64,000 bases of DNA from Mobula hypostoma. Its lineage: Eukaryota. Numbering within the stretch: the first letter of the stretch is position 1; every line of letters starts with the position of its first letter. Below the pieces are notes generated by a model that searched no databases, was not told where the DNA came from, and saw nothing but the letters and a program-made list of their open reading frames with translations. Below, one piece after another: positions 3,897 to 62,762 of the stretch. The translations under genes were made by a program, and so were the position numbers. Location: assembly GCF_963921235.1 (NCBI RefSeq), contig NC_086107.1, forward strand, positions 100,504,001-100,568,000, written 5' to 3'.

Positions 3897-3910
3897 CTTC
3901 CCCCCTTTAA
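3897..3910 (-). promoter_or_regulatory. Polypurine tract of the Gypsy element
   Basis: Minus strand reads ttaaaggggggaag directly before the 3' LTR. Confidence 0.8.
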
Positions 3911-4068
3911 GGATTTTTACCGGGAGGTAAAAATTACAAACATGACTACATTATCTGATACATACACAATATACATCTTTAACAGTTATTTAGCTAATAC
4001 AGAGAATTTGAAGCTGTCAATACCTTGACAGACAGTCATCACATTTTCTGTTCCTTTTACACGTGTTA

Positions 4069-6876
4069 TTAATAATCCCTTAGACCAGGCTCCAACTCAG
4101 CAAACTTCATAGTGGCCAAAAACACTGATGAATTGCGACCAATGTAACCTCTCATTTGGTTTTGTCCCGGACCACAACAACAAGGGTCGTCCCATTCCGA
4201 CTCAATTTTCCCTCGCAAGGGCTTAGTAGGAGGGGGACGGGTATTGACCGCAGAGTTATTGCAAAACTTCCTGCAGTACCCCACCATCTCCAAAAGCCTT
4301 CTGAGGGCCCTCTTGTCTGTCGGGGTTGGGAGGTCAGCGATAGCCTGCACTGTAGCTTGCATCACTGCCAGCTGCCCCTGTGTCACCACAATTCCCAGGT
4401 AAGTGACATTCGCGTGGCCGAATTCATTTTTTCCAAGGTTCACTATCAAGCTGGCTTCAGACAGCCGTGTTAAATTGCCAATACACACCTCTGTGTTCAT
4501 CAGCCCTTTAGTCACTGAATTACTCAAAAAATATGGGTGTTGTTTGCTTGGCCGCCCTATTGTAACCGACATAACCCAACGTCCCAGTTCTTTGCATTTC
4601 CTCGGGACAATCAAACACATGGGTGCGAGTCGTTTAATTACTCCTTCGGGGATTAAGGGAGAGACCTTATCAGTAGACCTGGCCAAAACAATAGCCTTCT
4701 CCCATCTGACCGATCCCATCCTAATCTTTTCAAAATGGTTTTTTCCTCTTATCAAGGGGCCCCTAGCTTCATTGATTTCCACGCTAACACCGACTAGGTT
4801 TGTTAGCATATCAAAAGCCGGTGACCGTCTCAGTTCGCGTCGGTCATGATCAATAACATTTTTCCCCCTGGGCAGCCGGTAACTCTCTTTCATGATTCCA
4901 CCAACTGTTTCCTCCAGCACCGCAAAATGTCCACCGGGGGGTACCTCGTGGGCCATGTTAAAAACCTCATCCCCATAACTCTTTTGCACCACCCCCCACT
5001 CCTCATCTGCGGATGCTGTACTTGATTTCCCTTTCTTCCTTAGCACCTCCTTATCCGCACAATAGCTTGTCAAGGCTGTGTCAGAGAGAGCGGTCTCGGC
5101 CAAAACCATCAGCCCCTCGTCTCGCTCCTGCGTCTGCACAAATTCTTTCCTGGCTACTGCTACGTCCGTCCCAGCTCCCTCACTACCTCTTATCTCACTA
5201 CACCCTGTCTCATACAAGGTTGGCAGAAATGTTTCAGCCAAATTCACCATCGCGGGCGGGGCCTCCATGCTGGCAGGCTGACCCGTCAATCTCACGACTG
5301 GGAACACGATTCCTCCGGCGATGTCATTACCGAGCAAGACTTCCACGTCTTTCATCGGTAATTCGGACCTCACCCCAATCGTGACTAGTCCAGAGACCAG
5401 GTTGCTCTGTAAATGTATCTGGTGCAAAGGGACTGACTCTGTCCCTTCCCCAACACCTTTGACCTCTACCTCCCCAGTCTGGGTCTCTGAGCTAAACTCT
5501 AATACACTCTTCAGTATTAGTGACTGACACGCTCCCGTGTCTCTCCAGATCCGCACTGGAACTGGTTTTAACCTCTTTTTCACTGACACCAGTCCGGCCG
5601 AGATAAACCTCTCGCGCCCTTCCTGGACTTTTTCAGACCTGTCCTTCCCTAGCGGTTCGCTTAACAGCTCAATACAGCCATTCAAAATTTCCGCTTTTCC
5701 TTTCCCCGTCTCCTTCCTTGGGGCAAAGCACCTGGACGCAAAGTGTCCGACTTTCCCACAATTATAACAGACGACCCCAGGAGACTTCCTACCAGACTGC
5801 TCCCGGTCTACCTTATCCTTTTCACTAGTCCCCGGCTTACTTTCTGACTTTTCCGGTGGACTCTCCCCGCCGTCCTGACTACCCTTCTGGTAGCCTTTAC
5901 TCGGGGCAACCTTCATTTTATGCGTCAACGCATACTCATCCGCTAACTTAGCAGTTGCGGCTAACGTGGCTGCCTCTTTCTCATCGAGGTAGGGTCTCAT
6001 ACCCTCAGGGACACAACCTTTAAACTGCTCAATCAGAACCAGTTGCAGCAGTCTGTCATAATCCCCCTCTACCCCTTTCGAGGCGCACCAACGCTCACAA
6101 TATGTTTGCATCTCACGAGCAAACTCCAAATACGTGCGGTCCCACCGCTTCCTCGCATTCCGGAACCTCTGCCGGTATGCCTCCGGGACCAACTCATAAA
6201 TCCTGAGGATGGCCTCCTTCACCACCTCATACTTCTGGGCATCTTCCGCGGATAAGGCGGAGTAAGCTTGTTGGGCCTTCCCTTTCAGTACACTCTGAAG
6301 TAAGACAACCCACTTATCCCTCGGCCATTCCTGACTTATAGCTACTTTTTCGAAGTGGAGAAAGTACCGATCCACATCGGTATCGTCAAATGGGGGAACC
6401 AGCCTAACCTCCTGGGTCGCCCGGAACCCTCCACCTTGGTTCGGCACGAGCCCCTGCTCGGCCCTTATCTTTAACTTCTCCAGCTCAAATTCCCTTTCCC
6501 TCTGTTTCTCCTCTCTCTCCAACTGTCTGTCCCTCTCTCTCTCTTGCCTTTCTACCTCTCTCTCCTGCCTTTCTAACTGCTTCTCTTCGTGTTCTAACTG
6601 CCGTACCCGGAACTCGTGCTCGAGTCTCAGTTTTTCAAGCTGTACCTGTACCGCGTCTCCAGCAGGTTTTTCAATAGACACCTCCCCCAGCTCACCTTGG
6701 GGAAACACACCTTTAGATACATAGTGCTCTACAATAGCTCTGTGTATCTCCTCTCTCCTCATTGTCGACTTCACCTTAGCAAGATTCACCCGTTTTGCCA
6801 CAGCTATCAATTCCGATTTCCTGGCATCCTCTAATGCCTCCAAGGTCGGCGCCTTTATAAATTCCTCAACCTCCAT
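4069..6876 (-). CDS. Gypsy Gag (coiled coil, SCAN-like capsid, CCHC knuckle) - aspartic protease - vestigial integrase/RT polyprotein, 935 aa
   Basis: Uninterrupted ORF. SCAN-like YRQRFR...LIEQFKGCVP; CYNCGKVGHFASRC (5728-5769); RDTGACQSL (DTG at 5533-5541); integrase HH half AHEVPPGGH (4927-4953); RT pieces KQHPY and LTRLSEASLIVNLGKNEFG..TYLG..GYCRKF. No YxDD or DDE core is seen. Confidence 0.9.
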   Translation of the reverse strand: MEVEEFIKAPTLEALEDARKSELIAVAKRVNLAKVKSTMRREEIHRAIVEHYVSKGVFPQGELGEVSIEKPAGDAVQVQLEKLRLEHEFRVRQLEHEEKQLERQEREVERQERERDRQLEREEKQREREFELEKLKIRAEQGLVPNQGGGFRATQEVRLVPPFDDTDVDRYFLHFEKVAISQEWPRDKWVVLLQSVLKGKAQQAYSALSAEDAQKYEVVKEAILRIYELVPEAYRQRFRNARKRWDRTYLEFAREMQTYCERWCASKGVEGDYDRLLQLVLIEQFKGCVPEGMRPYLDEKEAATLAATAKLADEYALTHKMKVAPSKGYQKGSQDGGESPPEKSESKPGTSEKDKVDREQSGRKSPGVVCYNCGKVGHFASRCFAPRKETGKGKAEILNGCIELLSEPLGKDRSEKVQEGRERFISAGLVSVKKRLKPVPVRIWRDTGACQSLILKSVLEFSSETQTGEVEVKGVGEGTESVPLHQIHLQSNLVSGLVTIGVRSELPMKDVEVLLGNDIAGGIVFPVVRLTGQPASMEAPPAMVNLAETFLPTLYETGCSEIRGSEGAGTDVAVARKEFVQTQERDEGLMVLAETALSDTALTSYCADKEVLRKKGKSSTASADEEWGVVQKSYGDEVFNMAHEVPPGGHFAVLEETVGGIMKESYRLPRGKNVIDHDRRELRRSPAFDMLTNLVGVSVEINEARGPLIRGKNHFEKIRMGSVRWEKAIVLARSTDKVSPLIPEGVIKRLAPMCLIVPRKCKELGRWVMSVTIGRPSKQHPYFLSNSVTKGLMNTEVCIGNLTRLSEASLIVNLGKNEFGHANVTYLGIVVTQGQLAVMQATVQAIADLPTPTDKRALRRLLEMVGYCRKFCNNSAVNTRPPPTKPLRGKIESEWDDPCCCGPGQNQMRGYIGRNSSVFLATMKFAELEPGLRDY

Positions 6877-6952
6877 TTCTGCTGTTTGTCTTTTCTTTCT
6901 TTCGGGAATTTTAACCCAATCAATTTACTCCGTCCCAAATTTAGCGTTCAAA

Positions 6953-6971
6953 ATCGCGGACGAGAACCCCA
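6953..6971 (-). promoter_or_regulatory. Primer-binding site, imperfect tRNA-Pro-like
   Basis: Minus strand TGGGGTTCTCGTCCGCGAT, 4 nt inside the 5' LTR; resembles the tRNA-Pro PBS TGGGGGCTCGTCCGGGAT. Confidence 0.65.
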
Positions 6972-6975
6972 CTTA

Positions 6976-7834
6976 TGTTACGTACCCCGTAACTGGGTTG
7001 CCAAACCAGCAGAAATGGATCACTCAGTTGGAGTCTGGAGTACTAGAACTAAGAAAGTTTTATTAAAGAAACAAGCAACACAGTAATCGAAAGGATAATA
7101 AATGCAACAGTTCAGTGATGATAAACACATGTGCACAGAATTAAGATAACAGCATCAATCAAGCTCTATCGTTGTCTAGGGGTTAAATGACCAATTTCAA
7201 AATGACTCAAAGTTCAGTCCAGTTTGTAGTTCAGTTCGCAGTAATCGTTGCCATGGCGATGGACAAGGTGGGGGAAGAGAGACAGAGATAGAACAGGAAC
7301 AACTGATCATTCAGAACAGCTTCACTCACAGACCAGCGGGATGGCTCACAAACAGCATTTGGGCGGGTCCTTGGTGATGTCACCTGAGGTCACCGACTGT
7401 GACCCCTCCTCCAGATGCGGTCGATCCTCTGCAGTGAACCCGGCACCCAGGCAAGGGCGGACACACACCGGGTTCCCGCTGATCGTACCTTTCCACCCTG
7501 TGCGTTGTCCGGTACTTCTCATCACTCGTGAGAGGCGCACCGCTTCCAGGGTCTCGTTACCTCGGGTGGCGTGTGTCTGTCTTAGCGAACCTGTCCCTTT
7601 TTATCCCCCTGCTGGGGTATCGCCTGTCCATCACTTCAAACAGTTCAGGGCTCAAAGGGGGGAGCCGCTCCAGACAGCTCTTCCTCCCACATCCCTTCAT
7701 TACACATCTCCAGACGCTGCTCCATTGTTCCTTATCTCTCCTTCCCCTGAGGGCAGGTGGCAGACCAACTGCTGATGCCACTGATGCTAGCCCAGGCCAG
7801 CAAACATCTTAATTTTATGTGTATTCTCGTAACA
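6976..7834 (-). repeat. Gypsy 5' LTR (859 bp)
   Basis: Matches 3038-3896; adjacent to the PBS. Confidence 0.95.
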
Positions 7835-8416: not shown

Positions 8417-11092
8417 ATGGCGAAATCATTAGACGCTTTGACAAGTGGCATGATGGCTTTGCGATCAAGCATCAAGTCGCTTGCACTCAGTGTCAAGAGC
8501 AGTAGGACGTCGACAAGTGTGGCTGCCCTCGCAAGAGCTAAAGCAGAAGCCGCCAAGGTGCGAGCGTCATACGCTAACCAAGAAGCAAAACTGAAAATGG
8601 AAGAAGCTGCTAGGGAAGCGGAAAACCAGAAGGAAAAGGTTGCCAGAGAAGCGGAAAACTAGTTGGAAAAGGCAAGGATAGATACAGAGTTAGAAGTGCT
8701 GACGCTACAACGAGAAGCTGATGTGGCCGCGGTGGAAGCACAAGTGTTGGAAAACGCTGAAGAAATGCACGTTCTAGAAAAAACAGGAAAATCTATGTCA
8801 GAAAGGGCCAAATTGGAACGCACCAGCAAATATGTCCAATCTCAAATTGACCGACAGATTCATTCTCTCTCTCCATACTTGCCTGTTGGCGTCCCATCTC
8901 ATGTGAAATCACAGGGAAGCTTCGTTGCATCGCGTCCACCTGGGGAAGACAACTCACAACTGCAACCTCGCCACAAACTCAATATGAAAGGGCTGACTAC
9001 GAATACTTCCTGACACCAAACTTAACAGATCCGGCGAGATCAGGGACAAAAGGCAGAAGTCAGAACATCAGATCCCATCATGAACGTACACGCTCAGTCA
9101 TATGTCCCCCAACATATTCCCCCAGCTAGCACGCCACCTGCAGCAGAACCCTTGGCACAGTATTTAGCATGACGAGACCTTGTCAATTCAGGACTGTACC
9201 AGTTTGATGATAAGGCTGAAAATTACTGTGCGTGGTACTCCTCATTCACCAGTGCCACCGGTGGAGTCCAGCTCTCAGCAACCCAGGAGTTGGACTTTAT
9301 GACTAAATGGCTGGGAAAGGAATCAAGTGAACAGGTGAAACGCATACACTCAGTGTATGTCAACAACCCCAAGCTGGCCTTACACAAAGCATGGGAGAGA
9401 CTTCGGGACTGCTATGCGGCCCCTGAAATTATTGAGAGGGTGCTATTTCAATGGCTGGACAATTTTCCTAGGGTGTCAGCCAAGGACTACACTAAATTAC
9501 GTGAACTCAGAGATTTACTCATGGAGATTCAAGGTGCTAAAGAAGACGCCTATTTAACTGGCCTGTCGTATCTGGATACCTCACGCGGTGTTGGACCAAT
9601 TGTGGCTGCAGGAAAGATGGGTGTCAATTGGCTCAGAGTACAAGGAAGAGAATGGTTGTTGATTCCCTCCCTTTGAGTATTTTAGTAGATTTGTGTGCAA
9701 GGAGGCGAAGAGGCAAAATGACCCTAGCTTCATGAATCAAGGCAGCACCACAACTCACACCAACCCAGTCAAACCCACTTCGAACAATTTTGTCATCAGT
9801 AACCCGTCTCAGTGCATAAAACTGAAGTCTCCGCAATCAACGATGACCCTAGCAAGAATTGTCCATTGCACAACAAACACCACCCCCTCAAAAAATGCAG
9901 AATGTTTCGAAACAAATCCTTTGATGAAAGAAAGGTCCTTCTCAAGGCAAAAAGAATATGTTTTAAGTGCTGTTCCTCTACCTCCCACCTCGCTAAAGAG
10001 TGTACATTCCCCGTAAAGTGCTCAGAACGTAACAGCACTAATCACGATGGAGCCATGCATCCCAGCCTGTCACCGCAAACTGCCAAGCTCCCACAAGAGG
10101 ATGGCGGGGAGAGAGAGCATTACTCTGATACAACAATTGTCAGCTCGAGCTGCACAAAAGTTTGCAGTCCAGGTCAGTCGAGCCATTCGTGCTCAAAGAT
10201 CTGCCTCACTAAGGTATACCCTAAGGAAGCCAAAGACAAGGCCATCAAAACCTATGTAATTCTGGACGACCAGAGCAACCGCTCACTAGTGAAACCAGAG
10301 TTCTTCAAGTTGTTCAGCCTAAAGGGTAATCCACTCCCATACTACCTCAGAACTTGCTCTGGTGTCGCAGAAACATATGGCAGGAAGGCAGAAGGCTTCC
10401 AGCTCGAGTCGCTGGATGGCAAAGTCGTCATCAGTCTCCCTGCACTTTTAGAGTGCAATGAGATCTTAAATAACCGATCCGAGATTCCGACACCAAGCGC
10501 AGTGCTACACCAGCCCCATTTCCACCACATCCCAGAACTGGATCCGGAAGCAGAAATACTCCTGCTACTTGGAAGAGACATTCTTAGGGTGCACAAAGTC
10601 AGGCAGCAGGTCTATGGACCACACAACGCCCCCTTCACCCAAAGTCTGGATCTGGGCTGGGTGGTGATAGGAGAGGTGTGCCCTGGCAACGTACACAAAC
10701 CGACAGTTAACACGCTCAAGACTAACGTACCAGAGAGAGGCCACCATTTAATTTCTCAGCCCTCCACAAGTGTTATGTGTATCAAGGAAGCACAACAAAG
10801 GCACGAGCATAGTAAAGTAACTGAGAAGACACTGGGACAGTCAGTCTTCGCTCAAACTAAGCACAATAATAAACTTGCTCCATCGGTGGAAGACGCCATC
10901 TTCTTAAAAATAACGGACACAAAGGTTTTTCAGAGATGAAGCAAACAACTGGGTCGTCCCACTACTATTCAGAGAACCATGCCAGCGCTTACCAAACAAC
11001 AAAGAGCAGGCAGTCAACCGGTTCACATCTTTACAACGAACCCTGAAAAGGAAACCTGAGACCAGTTACAGAGGTCGTTCTACTTCTACTTA
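8417..11092 (+). pseudogene. Disrupted BEL/Pao gag-protease-(RT start)-(integrase C-terminal tail)
   Basis: ORF pieces at 8417, 8663, 9290, 9693 and 9812. Coiled coil ARAKAEAAK; zinc knuckles CPLHNKHHPLKKC and CFKCCSSTSHLAKEC; BEL protease YVILDDQSNRS; RT start LPNNKEQAVNR..LKRKPE joined to terminal RPVTEVVLLL. Stops and frameshifts throughout. Confidence 0.85.
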
Positions 11093-12067: not shown

Positions 12068-12185
12068 CATCTTCCCCCTTCTTTTCCAGTCCTGAAGAAG
12101 TGTCTCCGCCAGAAATGTTGACAGTTCATTCAATTCCATAGATACTGCCCGACCTGCTGAGTTCCTCCAGCATTTTGTGTTTCTT
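12068..12185 (+). mobile_element. Penelope-like terminal-repeat fragment with degenerate hammerhead motif
   Basis: cagtcCTGAAGAagtgtctccgccaGAAATgttgac...gacctgctgagttcctccagcattttgtgt; same family as the copies at 18380, 35248 and 62173. Confidence 0.65.
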
Positions 12186-12364
12186 TGGATGGTGTGCAAG
12201 ATAGGTTTTTAACTGTACCCCAGTACTTGTGACAATAGTAAACCAATTTGCCAATTTAATTCACTAGTTTATTTTGAATGATCAAGGAATTGAACTGGCA
12301 CAGAAGAGAGATTGAGTCCAGCATAGATCAGCCATGATCATAATTGATGGTGGGGCTTGAGAGA

Positions 12365-14536
12365 CAGGGGCGGTGCTAAGATGGTGCTAGCTGGTGCTAT
12401 AGCCCCAGCAGAAATTGCAATAGCACCAGCGTAGCACCACCAAGAAATTAACTGAAATTTCACATACAAATTGCAGCTGCTTTGCTTTCTCTGTATAGTT
12501 TTGAATACAGCTTGTTTCTCCAGTTGATCTAATTAAACAGCCTCCCAATTACCATAGCACCCATGCAGCAATAAAGTTAGAAACTCTATAAGATCCACTC
12601 TACACTTCTGCTTATTCGTTCATTGTCAATGTCTTGCCGATGCTGCCCTGAGATCAGTTAAGCTGATCTAAGATCACTTAAGGTGATGATGTCACTCACT
12701 CTCACTCACGTGAGAGATTGATGGTGTACATCCAGGTGCAGATCCATGGTCTCGCGAGACTATTGGATGCCCTACACACACACACATTGTGCTTTTACAA
12801 GCTAGCGTCGGCCTGGCACGTGCATTATCTTGGCCGGCATGAAAAATGGATGGATTCCTAGTGAGAAAATGACTTCATCCAGAGGAATCAGTGGCGTCTC
12901 AACCTGGGCCTGTCTTAATTGAAAGTGACATGCAGAAAGAAGTAAGTGGGGATGAGGACGACAGCAGTTCATCGAAGGAGTGTGAGGGCGAAACTGAGGA
13001 ACAAGAAATGGAGCGGGATTCGGAAGAGAACTTGGATGAAGTTGCTCTTAGTGCGAGTGGAATACTGTTAGCAATGTTAGCCAGCAGCCTGAGGAAGGAC
13101 CCCGTCAGTCAGCATTGGAAAAACTACCCTTCGCTGCTCTCAACAGTTTGGCAATCAGCAAAGGAGTTTTATTCGTGGCTGGTTTGACTGACTGGAATAT
13201 TCGATTACGAAAGATACTACGTTCTGCTTCGCATGCAGGCCTTTCCTGTGTGGAGGACATGGGTTCCATTCTGAGTCTACCTTTACTGTCACCGGTTACC
13301 GCAACTGGCGGAAAGCTACAACGGCTTTCAAAACTCACCATGTAAGTGCAGCGCTAATGTTAGCTATGGAGGCATGGGCCGAATTCAAATTGAGAAAACA
13401 AGACGATTCAAGATTGGGAAATATGTTCAACAAAGGACTTGCAAAGATTGTCCAAAAAATCGTGAGTATATGAGAGCAGTGGTTGAGTCTCTAGCAAGAA
13501 CAGACAATGAATGACACAGTGGAATTTCTAGCTCCAATGAGACCCTACCGCAATGCATTTATAGATTTATACAAACTAATCTGCATATCACTGACTCTAC
13601 CTGTGACATCTGCCTCATGCAAACGGAGTTTCTCTTGCCTCAGATGCCTCAAAAACTACCTGAGGAATAGCAGCGGCGATGCTGGGAACAGCAATGGCCC
13701 TGTTGGCCATAAACAGCCGGAGGACCAAAGCACCTGACATCCGGAAAATCATTGATGCTTTCGCCACCAATCACAACAACAGATGGATTGTGCTTCTCTG
13801 AAAACATCAACGGTGAGTGCAGTTGATTTAAAAAAAATTTGGGCCAAGACTAATGCTGATTATTATTATTGTTATTATTATTATTATTATTATTTTGTGG
13901 TGGATACCCCATAGTCCTTATGTTTCCTGCAAATCCTAAACTATTACATTTACTACTATTAAGCCTACTGGTTTTGCTTAGACTTCCAAGTGGTGATTCT
14001 GTTGATATTTGTTTTAAATTCAGTAGCCGAATTAATTGAGGTATTGCATGGTCAGAGCATGATTTGTTCAACTCCTGGTGAAGCCTTGCATCTGTTATTT
14101 TCCTTATTTGACTTTAATAACGGTGTGTCTTTTGGCATTTTCTGTCTATGTAATGCGAATAGCAGTGGATATTATGGGTTAGTGTTGAGATTTTCAGTTG
14201 AAAAGTACGCATTTGACGCTGATAGTGAGACTGGTGCGTGATTGACGTTGTGCGCTGTGGGTCAGATGCTCTGTTGCTCTGTTTGTTTATGCTCTGTGTA
14301 GCCCGGGTTGTCTCTGATGCTGTGACACTGTCCAGAGTTCACTTCTATATTATATTTATCAATTGCTGTTGCTTATGAATCAACAGAGGCATTTATAATG
14401 CTTGAAACTGACTTTTGAACACCACGCGTCTGGCCTTGTGAATACATTTACCATGTAGCACATCCCTCAGCACCATCACTGAATAATTCAGCCCCACTGT
14501 GGCACCAGCAAGAAAAAATCTCTGGCGCCGCTACTG
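12365..14536 (+). mobile_element. Internally deleted hAT transposon (Tip100/ZMYM1-like)
   Basis: Imperfect TIRs CAGGGGCGGTGC / GCGCCGCTACTG; perfect 8-bp TSD ttgagaga; TTF-type zinc-finger relic (LEYSITKDTTFCFAC, ~13190) and hAT dimerisation motif LPVTSASCKRSFSCL..LKNYLRNS (13507-13737). Confidence 0.9.
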
Positions 14537-14696
14537 TTGAGAGACCAAGTGTCCTATCCCTGTGCCTACTATACTATGTGTTCTTTGATTACTAAACTTA
14601 CTTATTCAATATTAATTTAACATTAGGAACAGGAATAGGTTAATTGGCATATTGAGCCTGTTCTTTCATTCACCAGACTATAGTTGCCTGATTGCC

Positions 14697-15120
14697 ACTG
14701 AGGCCTGACACGGCCATTCTGGCAGAAACCTCAAAGGAGGTGGCTTGGGAAGACCAGCTTGAGGTGGTGTCTGAGAGTAAGAAAGCCAAATATGGGGAGC
14801 TAATAGAGCAGTGCCAGAGACAGGGGTGGAGGATGCTGTAGAGGTCTTGCTGCCTGCTTGCTCTGCAGAACCTACTTTTTCCTTGGCATTACAGGGGTGA
14901 CAAAGAGAGGAGTTATCAGGACCGTCACAGAGGCTGCTGGGTGTGTCTCCAGATGGCTACGGACCAAGAGCTGTGGCCTATGGACTAATGCTGCTGGGAG
15001 ACAAGCCAGAGTCTGATCGACCCAGGCTGGGTCACCTAGGCAAGGGTGTCTGAATTTGAAAGATCCACAACACCCGATGACCCCAGGTTACATCACTGAT
15101 GATTCGACCACCACATCCTG
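14697..15120 (+). mobile_element. 3' fragment of a Hero-like non-LTR retrotransposon (restriction-like endonuclease)
   Basis: Relic translation LRPD..., (P)WE..LE...ESKKAKYGEL..QC.RQGW, followed by a 3' UTR of the kind seen in Hero elements. Degenerate. Confidence 0.6.
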
Positions 15121-15407
15121 GGATATATCTCATCGCCTCCTGTCTCAGTTTCACTTTCCTGCACTATTTTCACTTTTTTAAAATTCTCCTACGCTTATTT
15201 ATTTCTGCTTTGATTGAACTCACTGATCCACCATAGCTCAACAGTGTGGAGAGTTATAAAAGATCACCAACTTTTGAGTGAAAACTTTTCTTAACTCAAT
15301 CCTAAATGGCCTACCCTCAATGGACTGTAATCTGTAATTTTGGATTCTTCATCCAGTGAAACATCATCCCTGCTCTCACCTGTTGTGTCATGTAGGTATT
15401 TTGTAAC

Positions 15408-17290
15408 CATAGTCATAGTCATACTTTATTGATCCTGGGGGAAATTGGATTTTGATGCAGTTGCACCATAAATAATAAATAGTAATAGAACCATAAATAG
15501 TTAAATAGTAATAGGTAAATTACGCCAGTAAATTATGAAATAAGTCCAGGACCAGCCTATCGGCTCAGGGTGTCTGACCCTCCAAGGGAGGAGTTGTAAA
15601 ATTTGATGGCCATAGGCAGGAATGACTTCCTATGACGCTCTGTGTTGCATCTCGGTGGAATGAGTCTCTGGCTGAATGTACTCCTGTGCCCACCCAGTAC
15701 ATAATGTAGTGGATGGGAGACATTGACCAAGATGGCATGCAACTTAGACAGCATCCTCTTTTCAAACACCACCGTGAGAGAGTCCAGTTCCATCCCCACA
15801 ACATCATGGGCCTTACAAATGAGTTTGTTGATTCTGTTGGTGTCTGCTACCCTCAGCCTGCTGCCCCAGCACACAACAGCAAACATGATAGCACTGGCCA
15901 CCACAGACTCGTAGAACATCCTCAGCATTGTCTGGCAGATGTTAAAGGACTTCAGTCTCCTCAGGAAATAGAGATGGCTCTGACCTTTCTTGTAGACAGC
16001 CTCAGTGTTCTTTGACCAGTCCAGTTTATTGTCAATTCGTATCTCTAGGTATTTGTAATCCTCCACCATGTCCACACTGACCCCCCTGGATGGAAACAGG
16101 GGTCACCGGTACCTTAGCTGTCCTCAGGTCTACCACCAGCTCCTCAGTCTTTTTCACATTAAGCTGCAGATAATTCTGCTCACACCATGTGACAAAGTTT
16201 CCTACCGTAGCCCTGTACTCAACCTCATCTCCCTTGCTGATGCATCCAACTATGGCAGAATCATCCGAAAACTTCTGAAGATGACAAGACTCTGTGCAGT
16301 AGTTGAAGTCTGAGGTGTAAATGGTGAAGAGAAAGGGAGACAAGACAGTCCCCTGTGGAGCCCCGGTGCTGCTGGTCACTCTGTTGGACACACAGTGTTG
16401 CAAGCACACGTACTGTGGTCTGCCAGTCAGGTAATCAAGAATCCATGATACCAGGGGAGCATCCACCTGCATCGCTGTCAGCTTCTCCCCCAGCAGAGCA
16501 GGGCAGATGGTGTTGAACGCACTGGAGAAGTCAAAAAACGTGACCCTCACAGTGCTCGCTGGCTTGTCCAGGTGGGCGTAAACACAGTTCAGCAGGTAGA
16601 CGATGGCATCCTCAACTCCTAGTCGGGGCTGGTAGGTGAATTGGAGGAGATCTAAGTGTGGCCTGACCATAGGCCAGAGCAGCTCCAGAACAAGTCTCTC
16701 CAGGGTCTTCATGATGTGGGAGGTCAATGCCACCGGTCTGTAGTCATTGAGGCCGCTGGGGCGTGGCGTCTTCGGCACAGGGACGAGGCAGGACGTCTTC
16801 CACAGCACAGGAACCCTCCGGAGCCTCAGGCTCATGTTGAATACATGGCGAAGTACTCCACATAGCTGAGGGGCACAGGCTTTGAGCACCCTGGTACTGA
16901 CACCATCCGGTCCTGCAGCCTTGCTTGGGTTGAGATGTTTCAGCTGTCTTCTCACCTGTTCAGCTGTGAAGCTCACCGTGGTGGTTTTGTGTGGGGAAGG
17001 GGTATAGTCATGAGAGCAGGGTGGGGGGCTGTGAGGAGGGGTAGGAGGGGAGAGTGGAATATGTGTTGGTTGGGGGCCGACAACAGATGGCTCATGTGGG
17101 GGATGGGCAGGGGCCACAATGTCAAATCTGTTAAAGAACAGGTTAAGTTTGTTGGCCCTATCCATACTGCCTTCAGCTCCTCTGTTGCTGGTTTGCCAAA
17201 ACCCAGTGATGGCCCTCATCCCCCTCCAGACCTCTCTCATGTTGTTCCGCTGGAGTTTCCACTCAAGCTTCTTCCTGTACCTGTCTTCAA
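15408..17290 (-). mobile_element. 5'-truncated Rex1/Babar-type LINE with RT domain and one frameshift
   Basis: ORFs 16032-17339 (KAAGPDG, NDYRPVALTS, FFDFSSAFNTI, GAPQGTVLSP, KFSDD) and 15557-16075; (TATGAC)n tail at 15408; 6-C run near 16081 versus 5 G in the plus-strand copy. Confidence 0.9.
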
Positions 17291-18379
17291 TGAGACTACC
17301 ATTGTTAAGGATCTCTTGCATAAGTACAGGCAAGCCCATTTTTAGTTATGCTCTTATCACTAACATCATCCCATTATATTATCAATGATCCCACTGATCA
17401 TTTGTTATTTCTGTCACTGATTTCTTGAATTAGTATTACTAGCCCCATTGTTAAACAGCCTTTTGATTTAGACTGCATACCTAGATCATTATTAAATATT
17501 TCAGCTTACTGAGGTTAACAATGTTAACAATTGCTTAAATAGGCAGAGTTAGGCCATTGTAACTGATCTCTTTTATTTCCAAAGGCAGTACATTATCAAT
17601 GGTCCCTTCAGTTATTGAAACCATCGCAATGATAACGTCCATCTCAGTAACTCCCACTAATCAATAAAGGAAGCAAGCTGAATGCATATCAAAAACATCT
17701 ACAAGTCGAACTTGGAAATGAATATAAAATTCAGGAAACTCCCACAAATGCTAGAGGAACCCAGCAGATCAGGCAGTGTCTATGGAGGGAAATGAACTGT
17801 CCACATTTCGAACTGAGATCCTTCATCGGGACTCAGTTCCGGAAACTTTTAGCAGGCTGAGGAGAAGCTAAATAACCTTCAGGGCTTCACACCTGATGAA
17901 AAATGTCGTACTTGAACTGTGTTCCTCTCTACACAGAAGCTGTCTGACCTGTTAGAGTATCAAAGAAAATGAGTTGAAGTTGACTAATTCTGAACAGACC
18001 AATGGCCATAATAATAGTTTTAATTTCTTTTCTGTTCTCCTCTATTAGTTTATGTTGTATTATCTTAAAGTAAAATATTTGTTTCACACTCTAATCATAA
18101 CATGTTTGAAGATTCTTTATTGATCATCTGTGGCACTGTTTGTTATTTTTTCTATTCCATTAAGTACATTCTCATTCACTTCTAAATCATTTATTTTATT
18201 TACTTTCATTTACAATTAATCACTCTGATTTGTAACTCTCCATTTTTTTTCGATTACTACTTTTAAATACAAAATATTTTCAGCTTAATTTCCAAATGGA
18301 ATTCAGCAGTCTCAATTTCCTTATTGGGCTAGAAACTGATCTATAAAATGGAAACAACATTTCTCAGTCTCGATTCAAT

Positions 18380-18594
18380 ACCATGCACACAATGCACTGG
18401 AAGAGCTCAGCAGGTCAGGCAGAATCTATGGTTGGGGATAAATGGTCGACGTTTCAGGCCGAGAGCCTTCATCAGGACCCGAAATATTGACAGTTTATTC
18501 CCATCCATAGATGGTGTCTGACCTGCTGAGTGCCTCCAGCGCATTGTGTGTATTGCTTCAGATTTCCAGCATCTGCACTACCTCTTGTGTCTTT
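18380..18594. mobile_element. Penelope-derived short palindromic element
   Basis: Inverted arms ~18386-18455 and ~18481-18550; flanked by the direct repeat gattcaat (18372-18379, 18595-18602). Confidence 0.7.
18444..18479 (-). ncRNA. Minimal type I hammerhead ribozyme motif
   Basis: Minus strand GGTC-CTGATGA-AGGC-tctcg-GCCT-GAAAC-GTC^GACC: intact core, 4-bp stems I and II, loop-less palindromic stem III (ACGT). Confidence 0.75.
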
Positions 18595-19394
18595 GATTCA
18601 ATGCAGTATCTTTAGTCCCGTTGATTCTGGGTAGTTAAAAATTCCCCCAAGAGTAGCGTCCTATTTTTTTTATTCATTGGCTCATGAATTGTAAGAGAAA
18701 ATGGTAGATTAGCAGTGATTTCCATTGTAAATTCATATCAGACCTGCAAAGTTAGCAGTAATTGAAATGGTCATACAAAAACTGCCTCCAGTTCTGAGAT
18801 GTGAGTTCTATTGCTTTATGGATATTGAATGATCATATGAAAGTTCTAGCATTTTCTATCTTTATTGCCATTCCCTTTTCAAATATTTTCTTTAATTAAC
18901 TTGGAAATGTTATTTTCCAAAAATAGAAATAGAAATATTACATTGCAGCAATAACTGGAAACTGTAAAAAGATAACACATGACAAATATCATATACAATG
19001 TCCAAATTTGCAGAAGCTTTCATAAAGGTCAGGTAAGTAACCAGAAGAAACGTTTAAGTTTAAACAGTGCCTTTCACAACTTTAGAAAAGCACTTTTATA
19101 CCAGTGGAATATTCACTACTACCTATGAACTGTGCAATTATATTTTTAGATACGAAACTGTACCGTGCACTCAGCTGAGGATGAAGCATTACTGCTGGCT
19201 TTAACTGAGGTATTCAGTTCTAAGGTTCCAATACATAGCTTTGTAAAACTATACCTCCATTCTGAAGAAAATTTCAGCTTTTTGTTGCATTTTATTCCAG
19301 TAATAATTTTAATATTTGCAAAAGGAAATGCTTCATGGAGAAGCCAAGCCATCTCTTTAACTACAAACATGCTTTTACTTGGCAGTTCTTTTTA

Positions 19395-23350: not shown

Positions 23351-23552
23351 ATGAAGCGAGTGCTTAGTTTCTTGCTGTGGGCCATAATCGCCATCCGAGG
23401 ACATTTTTCCAAGAATCCCTATTCAAAGTGCACGGATAAATTGTTTACGATTAATGTGGTTCTATTGAATGATTCTTCCTCTCCTTGGACCTTGAATGAT
23501 GTAATTCCATGTATAAAGCAGGGAATTGAATCTATAAATAAGGACCTACAAG
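23351..23552 (+). CDS. GUCY2C: Guanylyl cyclase C (guanylin/heat-stable enterotoxin receptor) coding exon 1
   Basis: MKRVLSFLLWAIIAIRG signal peptide ...CTDKLFTINVVLL...KQGIESINKDLQ; donor AG|gtaaga; 202 nt, phase 1. Confidence 0.85.
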
Positions 23553-28600: not shown

Positions 28601-30895
28601 AAAGTTCAAAGTAAATTTATTATCAAGGTACATATATGTCACCATATACAACCCTGAGATTCATTTTCTTGCCAGCATACCCAATAAATCCATAATAGAA
28701 TAATAACCATAATAGAATCGATGAAAGACCGCACCAACTAGGGCATTTGACCAGTGTGCAAAAGACAATAAACTCAGCAAATACAAAAAGAAAGAAACAA
28801 TAATAATATTAAGTAAATCAGTAATAAGCATCGAGAACATGAGATGAAGAGTCCTTGAAAGTGAGTCCATAGGTTGTGGGAACTTTTCAGTCATGGAGCA
28901 AGTGAAGTTGAATGAAATTATCTCCTTTGGTTCAAGAGCCTGATGGTTGAGGGGTAACAACTGCTCCTGAACCTGGTGGTGTGAGTTCTGAAGCTCCTGT
29001 GCCTTTTTCCTGATGGCAGCAGCTAGAAGAGAGCATGTCCTGGGTGGTGGAGGTCCCTGATGATGGATGCTGCTTTCCTGCACATCTACAATGCTTTGCG
29101 TAGATGTGTCAATGGTGGGGAGGGCTTTACCTGTGATGGACAGGGCAGTATTCACTACCTTTTGTAGGATTTTCGGTTCAAGGGCATTGGTATTTCCATA
29201 CCAGGCTGTGTTGCAACAAGTCAAAATACTCTCCACCACTCATCTATAGAAGTCTGTTAAAGTTTAAATGTTGTCCTGGATCTTTGCAAACAACAAAGAA
29301 AGTTGAGGTGCTGCTGTGCTTTCTTTGTAATTGTACTTATGTGCTGGGGCCCACCAGGACAAGTTATCTGAAATAATAACACCAAGGAAATCAAAGTTGC
29401 TTACCCTCTCCACCTCTTATTTTAACTTAACTATTTAATGGATATATACTTCCTGTAATTCAGTTTTTATTCTATATTTATTTATCATGAATTTCATTGT
29501 ACTGCTGCCATAAAGTTAATGAATTTCATGACATATGAAGGCAAGACAACGTCTATACTTTATTAGGAGTTTGAAGAGATTTGGTATGTCAACAAAAGCA
29601 TTCAAAAACTTCTATAAATGTAGTGTGGAGAGCATTCTAACAGGCTGCATCACTGTCTGGTATTGGGGTGGGGGGGGTGCTACTGCACAGGACCAAAAGA
29701 AGCTGCGGGGGGTTGTAAATTTAGTCAGCTCCATCTTGGGTACTAGCCCACAAAGTACCCGGGACATCTTCAAGGAGCGGTGTCTCGGAAAGGCAGCGTC
29801 CATTATTAAGGACCTCCAGTACCCTTTTCTCACTGTTACCATCAGGTAGGAAGTACAGAAGCCTGAAGGTACACGCTCAGCGATTCAAGAACAGCTTCTT
29901 CCCCTCTGCCATCCGATTTCTAAATGGACATTGAACCCTTGAACACCACCTCACTTTTTAAATATATATTATTTCTGTTTTTGCAAGATTTTTAATCTAT
30001 CCAATATATATATATGCTAATTGATTTATTTATTTTTACTTTTTTTTTCTTCTATATTGTGAATTTGAACTTCTGCTGCTAAGTTAACAAATTTCACGAC
30101 ACATGCCAGAGATAACGAACCTGATTCTGATTCTGATATGCTAGTGATATTAAATCTGATTCTGAAATTTGGCTATAATTGTTATCATAGTTACCGCCTT
30201 ATCAACCTGGGGTGTTTCCTTGACTGAAAACCTGTAACCTCTAATTCTCCCTAGTTTCATGTTCACATTGCTGACTTAACTGGATTTCCTCATTTTACTC
30301 CACAATTCAGAATCAGAATCAGGTTTATTATCACTGGCGTGTGTCGTGAAATTTATTAACTTAGCAGCAGCAGTTCAATGCAATACATAATCTAGAAAAT
30401 AAAAAAATAAATGAACAAGTACATATATTGAATAGATTTTTTAAAAAAACATGCAAAAACAGAAATACCGTATATTTTTTTAAAAAGTGAGGTAGTGTCC
30501 AAAGATTCAATGTCCATTTGGGAATTGGTTGGCAGAGGGGAAGAAGCTGTTCCTGAATCACTGAGTGTGTGCCTTCAGGCTTCTGTACCTCCTACTTGAT
30601 GGTAACAGTGAGAAAAGGGCATGCCCTGGGTGCTGGAGGTCCTTAATAGTGGACGCAGCCTTTCTGAGACACCGCACGCTAAAGATATCCTGAATACTTT
30701 GTTGTCTAGTACCCAAGATGGAGCCGACTAAATTTACAACCCTCTGCAGCTTCTTTCGGTCCTGTGCAGTAGCCCTTCCATACCAGACAGTGATGCAGCC
30801 TGTCAGAATGCTCTCCACGGTACAACTGTAGAAGTTTTTGAGTGTATTTGTTGACATACCAAATCTTTTCAAACTCCTAATGAAGTATAGCCGCT
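28600..30895. mobile_element. Cluster of Rex1/Babar-type LINE 3' fragments in both orientations
   Basis: ORFs 28661-29239 (-), 29535-29849 (+) and 30558-30872 (-) all carry ESILT.C...WY motifs; (TCTGAT)n tails. Confidence 0.75.
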
Positions 30896-35247: not shown

Positions 35248-35381
35248 ATATGAGAAAGTCTGCAGATGCTGGAAATCCAAAGCAACACACATAAAATACT
35301 GGAGGAACTCTGCAGGCCAGGCAGCATCAATGGACAAGAGTAAACAGTCAACGTTTTTGTCTGAGACCCTTTTTCAGGACT
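35248..35381 (-). mobile_element. Penelope-like terminal-repeat fragment, hammerhead motif degenerate
   Basis: ctgcagatgctggaaatcc...ctggaggaactctgcaggccaggcagcatc...cagtcaacgttt..gagacccttttcaggact. Confidence 0.65.
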
Positions 35382-36129
35382 CATTCCAAAAATATTAGAA
35401 GAGGTCCAGACAAGCTTTACTGAAATGGTACCAAAGACACGGGACTTCTACAGAGTGACTGCGGAAACTAAGCTTGTCATTGGTGCACAGAAAGTTAAGG
35501 AAATGCTTGTTGGAGGTTTTTAAAGTTAGAACAAAATTTTAATAAAATGTCTCCGGGGACAGGTGGATCAATAACTTATGACATATACTTCAGATACATG
35601 GGAAAAAAATTAGACACAAATGATTTAGTAATCTGATGGGTCTTTTTGTGATTTTTATTTTATTTTATTAAGAACAGGCCTTTCCAGCCCTTCAAGCTGC
35701 AATCCCCCGATTTAACTCTAGTTTAATCACGGGATAATTTACAATGACCAATTAACCTACCAAACGGTATACCTTTGGAATGTGGGAGGAAACCCCATGG
35801 GGAGAACGCACAAACTCCTTAGAGACAGCGGTGATGTGGCATGCAAATCGAAAGTGGGATAACTTCCAAATTGTATTTGATGGAGAAAACTTTGCAGAGC
35901 TGTAGACACAGTAGAGTTTCTTCTTCAATGGACTGAATGGATGCCAAGTCTGATACTAAGCGCCATTTTCATCATTATGGAAAGTACCTCCTTCATATCA
36001 TTTACATCATTATGGGAAGTACCTCCTCAAGTCACTCGGTCTGCTACTGTCTGATGGAGAAAACAAATCAATTGAGACTCCTCGCTGGTATTTTCCTTTG
36101 TTAGCTGCTGACTTATATGAAAGAGGCTC

Positions 36130-58903: not shown

Positions 58904-59757
58904 GTGAGTGCTTTGACTTGGATTTTTGTTTTTTTCCAGCAGTTATTCTCACTGACCAATAGATGGCAGTACTGGATTACTTTTCATATTTGCTGTTGGA
59001 CCCAGGGCAGATAGATTATGGATAAGATGTGAAATTCTCTCTACATTTGTGCTTTCCTTGAGCATGAATTCATTGAAAAACTCAAATATTTGTGTGATGC
59101 CAAAATAACATACACATTATACAGACAATGGCTCACAAATAAAAAACACTGGAAAAAGCTCAGGTCAGACAGAGATTACAAAGTCATCAGAATTAACATT
59201 CAGATCTTCAGAATGAAGGACACTTGATTTGAAACCTTAACTCTACTTCTCTTTTCTTTGATACTGTTTGATTTGCCGAGAACTTCTAGTATTTTCTGCT
59301 TTATCACTTATTTCCAGTTTCTGCAGTTTTTATTCGATATTCCATCAAAATTAGGCCTTCCAACTCCACAATCACAAATTGCTACTCTATACCGTCTCTT
59401 ATAGTCCCTTACACAGGAGTAATCTGTAAGTGCAAGTTTCTAATGCTGTTTTTTTAATAGATGCAGAAACTTGGTTTGCCCAATTAAAAACTAAGTGATA
59501 TAAGGCTACACAGAAACTGATCTGACATTGAGCCAGAATGAATCAAACCTCCCCGTGGGACATAATCTCACTCAAATTCACTTGCTAATTTCATATGACT
59601 CTCACTGCACAAGCTGTCCCTCTCCTGACACTGCCATCTCACCAATACAATATCCTTTGGTTGGGGATAAAAATTATCCAATTTCTCCCTTGAATGTTCT
59701 CATCAATTTAACTTTCACAGGCCTCTTGGGATTCCACAAGGTTTGTATGATGTAGAT

Positions 59758-60675: not shown

Positions 60676-62172
60676 AAGGAGTAAATCTCCAGGAATAGAT
60701 TGGATTAAGATTCTGCGTTCTTACTGTAAATTACCAAGCCCTTAAGAGAAGAGCAGGCTGATGCCTCTCCCTATCACACTGAATTGAGTTTTTGGCCTCT
60801 TTAGAGATCCTGATTCCCTCGTCCATCCTTTAGTGCCTTATTCAAATAGCAAATCGTACATTTATGAGAAACAATGAGTGGCAGTTCATATGTAAAATCA
60901 TAAAACTTGTGAGCGCATTGGAGGTGGCCAGCTCATTGTGCTTTTGCTTATGTTAGGCCCTCAGTTGCCATTTCCTCTTCCCTTCCTATTTACTTGCCCT
61001 TTGAATGAGTATTTGAACTAGTATACAATATACTCCTTGTATCCTAGTGCAAATACTGTACTTATTCAAATATCTGTTAAGTAGGTACAGTCTCTTTGAC
61101 CATCAATGTATTGCAGCAGGTTGGGGAGGGTGTCAAAGCTTAAGATGGTTGATTAGGTTGCCAATGAAGTGGACTGCTTTGTTTTTGGACAGTGTAAGGC
61201 TTTTTGAGAGTTGTTCAAACTGTATTGTTTCAGGTGAATGGAAGCTATACCATCACACTTGCAACTTGTTCCCTGTTGTGGTAGAAATAGTTAAAACTAG
61301 TGTCTGATGGGATACTTGACCATTCTGGAGCAGCTGGGCTTAAGACTGTTGATGCATGTTGAGAATAACCTTGGATGATAAGCACAGTACCAGGAACTCC
61401 TTATTAATTAGATACTAGGCCCCTGGAACCAGGACAAAGGATGTCTCTGGGTGTAAATTATGAGTCCTGATACCAAGAATGTTAGACTTGCACTGAGGGT
61501 TAATTGACATCTCTTTTAAACGATTGATCATACACTGACCATGGGATGCCAAACAAAAGTTATGTGAAGTTGTTTGTCTTGCTGTATAAATATGAGCTTT
61601 GTACAACCTAAAAATCAGAGTTCTGGTGGTGATGGAGACTGCTGCAGACTCTCCATGATATTATGTTAATAAACTCTTAAAATAAAACTGGAAGTCACTC
61701 TGGTGATCTTAGTTAGTGATTCCACAACACTTGTAGATGGTGGGCAGACCTTGGGTCATCAGGAGACACTCTCGCTCAGCAGGATATCCAACCTCTGATC
61801 TACTCTTTTACTTTGGTTTCATCTAACTGGTCCATTTGAATTTCTGGTCATGGAAATTTGCTATGACAATATTGAATATCAAGCAGAGGTCAGCAGATGC
61901 TCTCTTGTTAGAGATAGTCACCACCAGCACTTTTCTTGCCTGAATATTATGGTTTCTTATTTGTCCATGGATGAGTGTTGTCCAGATTTTATACAGACAT
62001 CAGGTGCATTATTTGTTGAGGCATTTTAAATGGATTTAAACATTAAAAGTTGTACAACATCCCCAATTCTAACCTTATGAGAATGGGAATGTGGGGTTTG
62101 AATAATGCATGATGTAGTTCTTGTTGCACTTTCCTCTGCTGGCTGTTTGTTCTCAAAATATAATCTGATTCA

Positions 62173-62710
62173 TCAAAGTTGCTGGTGAACGCAGCAGGCC
62201 AGGCAGCATCTCTAGGAAGAGGTACAGTCAACGTTTCAGGCCGAGACCCTTCGTCCGGACTAACTGAAGGAAGAGTTAGTAAGAGATTTGAAAGTGGGAG
62301 GGTGAGGGGGAGATCCAAAATGATAGGAGAAGACGGGGGGGGGGGGATGGAGCCAAGAGCTGGACAGGTGATTGACAAAAGGGATATGAGAGGATCACGG
62401 GTCAGGAGGCCCAGGGAGAAAGAAAAGGGGGGGGGAACCCAGAGGATGGGCAAGGGGTATAGTCAGAGGGACACAGGGAGAAAAAGGAGAATGAGAGAAA
62501 GAATGTGTGTATATAAATAACGGATGGGGTACGACGGGGAGGTGGGGCATTAGCGGAAGTTAGAGAAGTCAATGTTCATGCCATCAGGTCTCGGCCTGAA
62601 ACGTTGACTGTACTTCCTCCTAGAGATGCTGCCTGGCCTGCTGCGTTCACCAGCAACTTTGATGTGTGTTGCTTGAATTTCCAGCATCTGCAGCATTCCT
62701 TGTGTTTGCG
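62173..62710 (-). mobile_element. 5'-truncated Penelope-like element with inverted terminal copy
   Basis: 16-bp TSD aatataat(c/t)tgattca (62157-62172, 62711-62726); 78-bp inverted arms 62171-62248 / 62587-62664; ORF C-terminus PDGMNIDFSNFR*; hammerhead-like motif. Confidence 0.8.
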
Positions 62711-62762
62711 AATATAATTTGATTCACTGGGATCTCCACTTTAAAAACTGAATCTGTTTCAG

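What the first reader, a model, noticed from the sequence alone, without database searches (positions are those of the whole stretch)
18372..18602. Intact minimal hammerhead ribozyme inside a palindromic Penelope-derived mini-element
Seen: the minus strand 18444-18479 has the full CUGAUGA/GAAA core, a GUC cleavage triplet, 4-bp stems I and II, and a loop-less palindromic stem III (ACGU). It sits at the centre of a ~165-nt hairpin flanked by an 8-bp direct repeat. Established: Penelope-like elements carry such minimal type I hammerheads, thought to cleave as dimers. Decayed relatives occur at ~12090, ~17745-17960, ~35250, ~59150-59330 and 62173. Inference: a high-copy, non-coding, ribozyme-bearing mobile family (retrozyme/SINE-like) mobilised by a Penelope RT.
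Basis: partly seen in the sequence, partly recalled or inferred. Interest (0 to 1): 0.7.

Follow-up and report, generated by a model that had tools for sequence, protein, structure and literature searches.

The report
Stump-sized palindromic Penelope insertion with hammerhead
The ribozyme motif is really there, but it is the known minimal hammerhead of a Penelope-like jumping gene, left in an old, doubly truncated insertion whose own hairpin is predicted to bury it, so this looks like an ordinary relic rather than a new ribozyme-driven mobile family.

Summary
Observation confirmed: a minimal type I hammerhead (minus strand 18479-18444; only descriptor hit in the window, 0 of 300 shuffles), a 171-176-nt hairpin and an 8-bp target-site duplication. 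The element is a tail-less inverted arm plus a direct arm with a 39-nt tail, the published layout of Penelope-like insertions. A younger copy at 62.2-62.7 kb has the same layout with a 416-nt inverted arm. The family is very abundant: 12,600-15,600 contigs per DNA run in three organisms. The locus is old: arms are 78% alike and it is shared by organisms 7-9% diverged. The palindrome centres differ from copy to copy, so a separate retrozyme/SINE with fixed ends is not supported. 'Intact' overstates it: four stem positions differ from the family, the G10.1-C11.1 register is lost, and one stem-I base comes from the inversion junction. The hairpin sequesters the core (stems I and II pairing probability about 0), and no working partner lies in tandem. 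No cleavage assay was run. One lead remains: 8 of 10 arm 5' ends lie in or at the hammerhead. The scan noted this family before, in this genome and another. Interest 0.17.

The parts
18372..18379 (+). Left target-site duplication (8 bp, AT-rich; 10 bp with one mismatch)
18380..18478 (-). Inverted, tail-less arm: 5'-truncated pLTR 3' end; its 5' end is the last 3 bases of native stem I
   Evidence: loose ends behind 18478 show the native upstream letters differ from this locus (table 7)
18444..18479 (-). Minimal type I hammerhead motif: stem I 18479-18476/18447-18444, CUGAUGA 18475-18469, stem II 18468-18465/18459-18456, GAAA 18455-18452, ACGU loop-less stem III 18452-18449, predicted cut after 18448
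   Evidence: differs from family letters at 18479, 18465, 18456 and 18444 (tables 3 and 7)
18478..18478 (.). Inversion junction; one base fits both arms
   Evidence: read
18478..18555 (+). Direct arm: 5'-truncated inside the 3' strand of stem II, so no hammerhead; both CpGs of the stem III region decayed
18556..18594 (+). Penelope 'tail' (39 nt), present on this arm only
   Evidence: aligns with the tail of the 62.6 kb copy; depth of paralogous contigs ends at about 18595 (table 2)
18595..18602 (+). Right target-site duplication
62157..62726 (+). Younger relative with the same layout: 16-bp duplication (62157-62172, 62711-62726), 416-nt tail-less inverted arm with a core-mutated hammerhead and the last codons of a frame ending PDGMNIDFSNFR-stop, direct arm from stem II (76 of 78 identical to the other arm), tail
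35251..35389 (-). Single-arm relative with tail, 5' end about 10 nt upstream of the core; core broken (G8, G12); candidate 11-bp duplication
12068..12187 (+). Single tail-less arm with polypyrimidine run upstream; core bases intact, stem II and palindromic stem III broken
17730..17981 (.). Older inverted pair: minus-strand arm with hammerhead broken at U4, about 55-nt spacer, decayed plus-strand arm with internal deletion
59135..59330 (.). Very old palindromic relative; hammerhead remnant on the tailed plus-strand arm

Best explanation
This is one old insertion of an endonuclease-containing Penelope-like element (PLE), reduced to two short cDNA stumps of the element's terminal repeat (pLTR). 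SHOWN HERE: the layout is duplication / tail-less inverted arm / junction / direct arm / tail / duplication; the hammerhead is part of the family's pLTR; the locus predates the split of organisms A, D and I. FROM THE LITERATURE: PLE protein nicks both strands of AT-rich DNA and starts reverse transcription at two neighbouring internal sites of uncleaved RNA, 30-40 nt apart, which defines the tail. INFERRED: one cDNA primed at the outer site (with tail) stopped in stem II, one primed at the inner site on the other strand stopped at stem I, and the two were joined head to head and repaired, leaving a palindrome and an 8-bp duplication. Fold-back self-priming is an alternative route to the same product. 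The hammerhead is a passenger. Its core survived about 10-15% drift by chance, and in an RNA through the locus the long hairpin would hold GAAA and GUC in a helix, so it most likely does not cleave.
For: Layout matches 'inverted 5'-truncated copy + tail at one end + TSD' (PMC8557442 passages; PMC3846280 passages; PMC11167929 parts 1-2). The same layout with a 416-nt inverted arm and a 16-bp duplication occurs at 62.2-62.7 kb. Inner junctions differ among the 6 window loci and among 4 paralogous contigs of run X19 whose junction letters are readable (table 5c; 12 rows shown, 41 not shown). 269, 167 and 58 records in X1, X13 and X22 leave the alignment at 18478 and continue with mixed, mostly native upstream sequence (agreement 0.40-0.48); 301, 284, 332 and 44 records extend the tailed arm into an uninverted hammerhead (table 7). 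Family letters differ from this copy at 18465 (97% of depth) and 18444 (80%) in X1 (table 3). Arm identity 61 of 78. Flanks join the element in organisms D and I, which differ by 30 of 416 and 35 of 407 letters (table 8). In the 215-nt RNA, all 8 stem I and II pairs have probability 0.00; forcing them costs 9.1 kcal/mol; a double hammerhead of two molecules lies 18.5 kcal/mol above two hairpins. Nearest same-strand hammerhead (17.8 kb) is broken at U4. None of the 10 arms starts at the cut site (read), in line with uncleaved RNA being the template.
Against: No full-length parent element or RT frame was found; PLE identity rests on the motif, the layout and a 12-residue frame end that I recognise from memory as a GIY-YIG C-terminus (too short to search). 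The sample of junctions is small and the contig data are biased: unitigs break inside the repeat, and even the locus's own centre is not listed. The 59.2 kb copy has a junction close to this one, and one contig of organism D (18386-18527, 27 differences) crosses the same centre. 8 of 10 arm 5' ends fall in or at the hammerhead, which plain random truncation does not explain. Nearest-neighbour folding ignores tertiary contacts, co-transcriptional folding and protein help.
Confidence: 0.8

Rival explanations
1. One reading: a non-autonomous palindromic mini-element that is transcribed and reinserted as a unit (SINE/retrozyme-like), with the hammerhead processing its RNA.
For: Very high copy number (15,639, 12,619 and 13,943 contigs laid). 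Similar centre in the 59.2 kb copy and in one organism-D contig (table 8). Putatively non-autonomous PLE derivatives are published (PMC8557442 passage; bioRxiv 10.64898/2026.07.22.740005). Family sequence occurs in 1,972 contigs of a run guessed to be RNA.
Against: Junctions differ among window copies and readable paralogues; the tail is on opposite arms relative to the hammerhead at 18.4 and 59.2 kb. Among the 32 longest pieces listed (8 per run) only 1 crosses the centre. No tandem organisation. The hairpin blocks the ribozyme fold. A cut at GUC would remove one arm from the other, so the palindrome could not be copied from a cleaved RNA (inference).
Confidence: 0.09
2. The locus began as a longer inverted PLE insertion like the 62 kb copy and lost its middle later by deletion between the inverted arms.
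For: Long inverted repeats are deletion-prone (general knowledge); microhomology-mediated deletions in Penelope copies are reported (PMC3846280 passages). The 62 kb copy shows the longer form exists.
Against: Only one base of overlap at the junction. The junction falls at the same boundary as single-arm copies that have no partner arm (35.4 kb), which points to an event during insertion.
Confidence: 0.07
3. This copy has been kept by selection as a working ribozyme or regulatory hairpin for the host gene region.
For: Only copy of 6 passing the full descriptor; stem II re-paired in a new register and stem I has a G-C pair in place of the family's A-U. Locus retained in three organisms.
Against: Four differences in 36 nt equal the drift of the rest of the arm (11 of 77 against window majority). 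With thousands of copies many intact cores are expected (P 0.17-0.31 per copy). The G10.1-C11.1 pair and bulged base conserved in min-HHRs are lost. Candidate exons nearby are on the plus strand, opposite to the motif (unverified). The orthologous centres could not be read.
Confidence: 0.04

Closest known systems
Minimal hammerheads (min-HHR) in the pLTRs of metazoan Penelope-like elements (Cervera and De la Pena 2014, PMC4209133)
   Same: Type I, 4-5 bp stem I, no stem III beyond a palindromic 15.2-16.2; thousands of dispersed single motifs from truncated PLEs; pairs on opposite strands 100-700 bp apart already noted. The family letters give a bulged base after A9 and G10.1-C11.1 as described.
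   Different: Stem II is short (4 bp). This copy has drifted to A10.1-U11.1 without a bulge. Chondrichthyans are not named in the parts read (1-2 of 4).
EN+ PLE insertions with inverted pLTR, tail and TSD (Arkhipova et al. 2013, PMC3846280; Craig et al. 2021, PMC8557442; Frangieh et al. 2024, PMC11167929)
   Same: Inverted 5'-truncated copy at the 5' end, 30-40 bp tail at one end, 8-10 bp duplication, AT-rich target, template not cut by the hammerhead.
   Different: Here both arms are under 120 nt, so the whole insert is a 215-bp near-perfect palindrome with no ORF; such stumps are extremely abundant in this lineage.
Non-LTR (animal) retrozymes (bioRxiv 10.64898/2026.07.22.740005; Cervera and De la Pena 2020 seen as search listing only)
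   Same: Non-coding, type I hammerhead, derived from PLE pLTRs; reported in one chondrichthyan genome.
   Different: Defined by head-to-tail tandem units each with a hammerhead. This locus is head-to-head, with one hammerhead and PLE insertion hallmarks.

Membership tests
PLE min-HHR | CUGANGA and GAAA boxes, NUH triplet, stems I and II | tested here: met
PLE min-HHR | Palindromic, loop-less or tiny stem III | tested here: met
   ACGU
PLE min-HHR | Bulged base after A9 and G10.1-C11.1 pair | tested here: not met
   Met by the family letters, not by this copy (18465 and 18456 changed; tables 3, 7)
PLE min-HHR | Lies in the pLTR of a PLE | tested here: inconclusive
   62 kb relative links the motif to a 330-nt upstream region and a frame end recalled as GIY-YIG C-terminus; no RT frame found
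PLE min-HHR | Self-cleavage as a dimer | not testable with these tools
   Folding predicts the active fold is disfavoured in this context
EN+ Penelope-like insertion | 5'-truncated copy with adjacent inverted 5'-truncated copy | tested here: met
EN+ Penelope-like insertion | 30-40 bp tail at one end only | tested here: met
   39 nt at 18556-18594
EN+ Penelope-like insertion | Target-site duplication in AT-rich DNA | tested here: met
   8 bp. Empty site not seen: both relatives laid carry the insertion
EN+ Penelope-like insertion | Parent ORF with telomerase-like RT and GIY-YIG endonuclease | not testable with these tools
   No genome held; none of the 38 frames of 120 aa or more was recognised by eye as a PLE ORF; collection scans gave no relative
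Non-LTR retrozyme | Two or more head-to-tail units, each with a complete hammerhead | tested here: not met
   One motif, arms head to head; next same-strand motif 600 nt away is broken
Non-LTR retrozyme | Circular RNA intermediate | not testable with these tools
   Only contigs of runs guessed to be RNA were offered
SINE/MITE-like non-autonomous family | Copies share both ends and internal structure | tested here: not met
   3' ends shared, 5' ends and centres differ among 6 window loci and readable paralogues; small, biased sample

The most novel reading that the evidence does not exclude
The stumps are not randomly truncated. A short, hammerhead-bounded RNA segment of about 100-140 nt, whose 5' edge is an acceptor-like AG|UC in stem I (polypyrimidine run and a TACTAAC upstream in the 62 kb copy), is the preferred template. 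Internal priming near the 5' end of spliced or protein-bound PLE RNA would then mass-produce SINE-sized, hammerhead-carrying copies without a separate SINE gene, with the mirror arm built at each insertion. That would tie splicing or the ribozyme fold to where Penelope reverse transcription stops.
Probability: 0.15. Interest if true: 0.5.

Novelty: new member of a known kind. Interest (0 to 1): 0.17.

Why it matters
As a locus it matters little: it is a fossil. The family is a large natural record of Penelope insertion products, and the positions of 5' ends and inversion junctions across thousands of copies could discriminate twin priming from fold-back priming and test whether the hammerhead or the pLTR intron shapes the template, questions left open in PMC11167929 and PMC3846280.

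Tried and rejected
Rfam scan of the window: 7 weak matches, none a hammerhead. Exact-motif scans for more copies: viral contigs 0 in 2 scans, metagenome contigs 0 in 2 scans, genome contigs 1 match, inside a bacterial coding region with no further likeness, dropped as chance. One search used a wrong spacer length and gave 0; replaced by the descriptor scan. No RNA holder listed for the stretch; run X22 covered 13 of 29 bins, all within or at the edges of the element, and none of the unique flanks, which is no evidence on expression; 'places where many molecules begin or end' gave none, and contigs cannot show RNA ends. Summed depths were not used as copy numbers. Most 'skip' joints in table 5 start or end next to private mismatches of this copy and were treated as alignment breaks, not junctions. 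In-cis rescue was considered by eye: the antisense arm can pair with GAAAC-GUCGAC like a long stem III, but leaves only 7 nt for stem I, which cannot pair; rejected. Short hidden inverted arms upstream of the 35 kb and 17.8 kb motifs: no convincing match. Host-gene identification: Pfam on 5 short frames gave nothing significant, PDB search 0. Lunse et al. on dimer cleavage was not held; seen only as a reference in PMC6765202. Searches for print on this lineage: Penelope + elasmobranch + hammerhead ribozyme 0 papers; Penelope + stingray + transposable elements + genome 0; one search listed 11 papers, none on this family by title; the library lacks most subscription journals and Repbase/Dfam entries, and supplements of the bioRxiv preprint could not be seen. 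Sequence look-up in earlier findings: nothing.

Full report
OBSERVATION. The minus strand from 18479 to 18444 holds a complete minimal type I hammerhead motif: stem I GGUC/GACC, CUGAUGA, stem II AGGC/GCCU, GAAA, a loop-less ACGU stem III and a GUC triplet. A descriptor needing both boxes, stems I and II of at least 4 bp and a palindromic stem III finds it as the only hit on either strand, and 0 of 300 dinucleotide shuffles give any hit. Rfam does not see it. It lies at the apex of an inverted repeat with arms 18383-18458 and 18478-18553 (61 of 78 identical; fold z = -9.2). The 8-bp direct repeat is at 18372-18379 and 18595-18602. A profile built from 8 arms of the window finds 9 arms at 6 loci (those 8 match by construction); a tenth, at 59.1 kb, is weak.

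ANATOMY. The insert is 215 bp and is not symmetric. The minus-strand arm carries the whole hammerhead and ends without a tail. The plus-strand arm starts inside the 3' strand of stem II and carries 39 more bases (18556-18594) that align with the tail of the copy at 62.6 kb. That copy has the same order of parts: a 16-bp duplication, a tail-less inverted arm of 416 nt, a direct arm starting in stem II and 76 of 78 identical to its partner, and a tail. Its long arm begins with a frame ending PDGMNIDFSNFR-stop, which I recognise from memory as the end of a Penelope GIY-YIG domain; it is too short to search. The other relatives differ again: single arms at 12.1 and 35.3 kb, an inverted pair with a 55-nt spacer at 17.8 kb, and a very old palindrome at 59.2 kb in which the hammerhead remnant is on the tailed arm.

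FAMILY AND AGE. No genome is held and five collection scans gave no relative. Laying four public runs on 18230-18770 at 80% likeness placed 15,639, 12,619 and 13,943 contigs from DNA or untyped runs of organisms A, D and I, and 1,972 from a run guessed to be RNA; depth is confined to 18382-18595. Contigs are not loci, but the family is clearly in the thousands or more. In D and I single contigs join both unique flanks to the element, with 30 of 416 and 35 of 407 other letters, so the insertion predates those splits; the centre is not resolved in them. That the host is a cartilaginous fish is my recall of the repeat and is also said in earlier AI notes; I did not test it.

HOW INTACT IS IT? Family letters differ from this copy at 18465 (97% of depth in X1) and 18444 (80%) (table 3; 71 rows not shown). 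Loose-end consensus shows C where this copy has T at 18456 in two of four runs, and native upstream letters that give stem I as CAGUC/GACUG (table 7). So the family has a 5-bp stem I, a bulged A and GGGU/GCCC with G10.1-C11.1, as described for min-HHRs (PMC4209133, parts 1-2 of 4 read). This copy has four differences in 36 nt, has re-paired stem II as A-U first, and takes its outer stem-I G from the other arm. That is the drift rate of the rest of the arm (11 of 77). The 11 invariant core bases survive in 2 of 6 arms that span the motif, against 0.17-0.31 per copy expected at 10-15% drift. There is no sign of excess conservation, but the sample is small.

WOULD IT CUT? In the 215-nt RNA the 8 pairs of stems I and II have probability 0.00, GAAA and the triplet region sit in the long helix, forcing the hammerhead stems costs 9.1 kcal/mol, and a two-molecule double hammerhead is 18.5 kcal/mol above two hairpins. 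The 44-nt core alone folds no better than shuffles (z = -0.89). The only other same-strand motif within 1 kb is broken at U4. Published min-HHRs are inactive as monomers and weak as dimers; the anole PLE ribozyme needs protein, is dispensable for insertion in vitro, and uncleaved RNA is the main template (PMC11167929, parts 1-2 of 4); 8 of 9 Xenopus retrozyme dimers did not cleave (bioRxiv 10.64898/2026.07.22.740005, parts 1-3 of 5). These are predictions and analogies, not an assay.

SEPARATE FAMILY OR STUMP? The inverted 5'-truncated copy, the one-sided 30-40 bp tail and the duplication are the standard PLE insertion (passages of PMC8557442, PMC3846280, PMC8969392, PMC2377424), and two internal RT starts explain the tail. 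A unit that replicates as a palindrome should share its centre. Instead the window loci differ, and four X19 contigs with readable junction letters join the arms at four different places (table 5c; 12 of 53 rows shown). 269 records in X1 leave the alignment at 18478 with mixed, mostly native sequence, and 301 extend the tailed arm into an uninverted hammerhead (table 7). Against this: the 59.2 kb copy has a similar centre, 1 of the 32 listed pieces (organism D) crosses the same centre, and unitigs break inside repeats, so spanning pieces are under-counted. I put the ordinary reading at 0.8 and the separate family at 0.09.

WHAT REMAINS OPEN. Read by eye, 8 of 10 arms in the window have their 5' end in or within about 12 nt of the hammerhead core, none at the cut site; the exceptions are at about -22 and -325. 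Several ends, and two of the four X19 junctions, fall at AG|TC in stem I, which follows a polypyrimidine run and, at 62.27 kb, a TACTAAC. In Drosophila virilis the Penelope intron ends at the 5' side of helix I. Splicing, an RT block at the ribozyme fold, or CAG microhomology could each cause this; short arms are also harder to detect, and the X19 rows are biased by the query. This is the most novel reading left (probability 0.15).

PRIOR NOTES. After stating my reading I looked at earlier findings: one on another genome reached the same conclusion for similar palindromes, and 44 notes on this genome match 'hammerhead Penelope', of which 8 were shown. They are unchecked AI notes and were not used as support.

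VERDICT. Real motif, known kind, old and probably inert copy; new member of a known kind; interest 0.17.

Noticed in passing
window 62262-62290 (minus strand); 12068-12090: TACTAAC, a polypyrimidine run and YAG lie directly upstream of stem I, like a spliceosomal acceptor; the 12.1 kb copy and the loose-end consensus show the same pyrimidine run and CAG. No clear donor seen in the 62 kb arm.
   Followed up: partly
window 35381-35389 and 17834-17846 (minus strand): Two different copies share GGAA(C)TGAG immediately before TCC of stem I, unlike the native pyrimidine run; could be another subfamily or the end of a spliced-on exon.
   Followed up: partly
table 5c, run X13, joint 18478 to 18445: A contig of organism D (depth 66 against about 6 for flanks) appears to repeat the hammerhead head to tail as a 34-35-nt unit, which would place two cores in tandem; the kind of joint is not stated.
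   Followed up: no
window 18372-18379 and 62157-62172: Both target-site duplications contain GATTCA; two cases only, but in line with the ATT preference reported for the anole PLE endonuclease.
   Followed up: no
window 62225-62262: The youngest copy already has U4G in the core and a GUU triplet shared by both arms, so its template RNA may itself have been a mutated copy.
   Followed up: no
window 13147-13341, 17585-17667, 19001-19033, 19150-19209, 23351-23552 (plus strand): Candidate host exons; the last looks from memory like the first exon of a receptor guanylyl cyclase. Pfam and PDB searches gave nothing. All lie opposite to the hammerhead strand.
   Followed up: partly
window 54690-55461 and 29822-30619: Other long inverted repeats (150 nt 100% complementary; 148 nt 89%), not related to this family by the searches run; probably other mobile elements.
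   Followed up: no
window 3307-7775, 9173-10939, 15557-17345, 48401-51907: LTR-retrotransposon gag-like and LINE RT-like frames, labelled from memory; the 12.1 kb copy abuts the end of another repeat that recurs at 22.2-22.9 kb.
   Followed up: no
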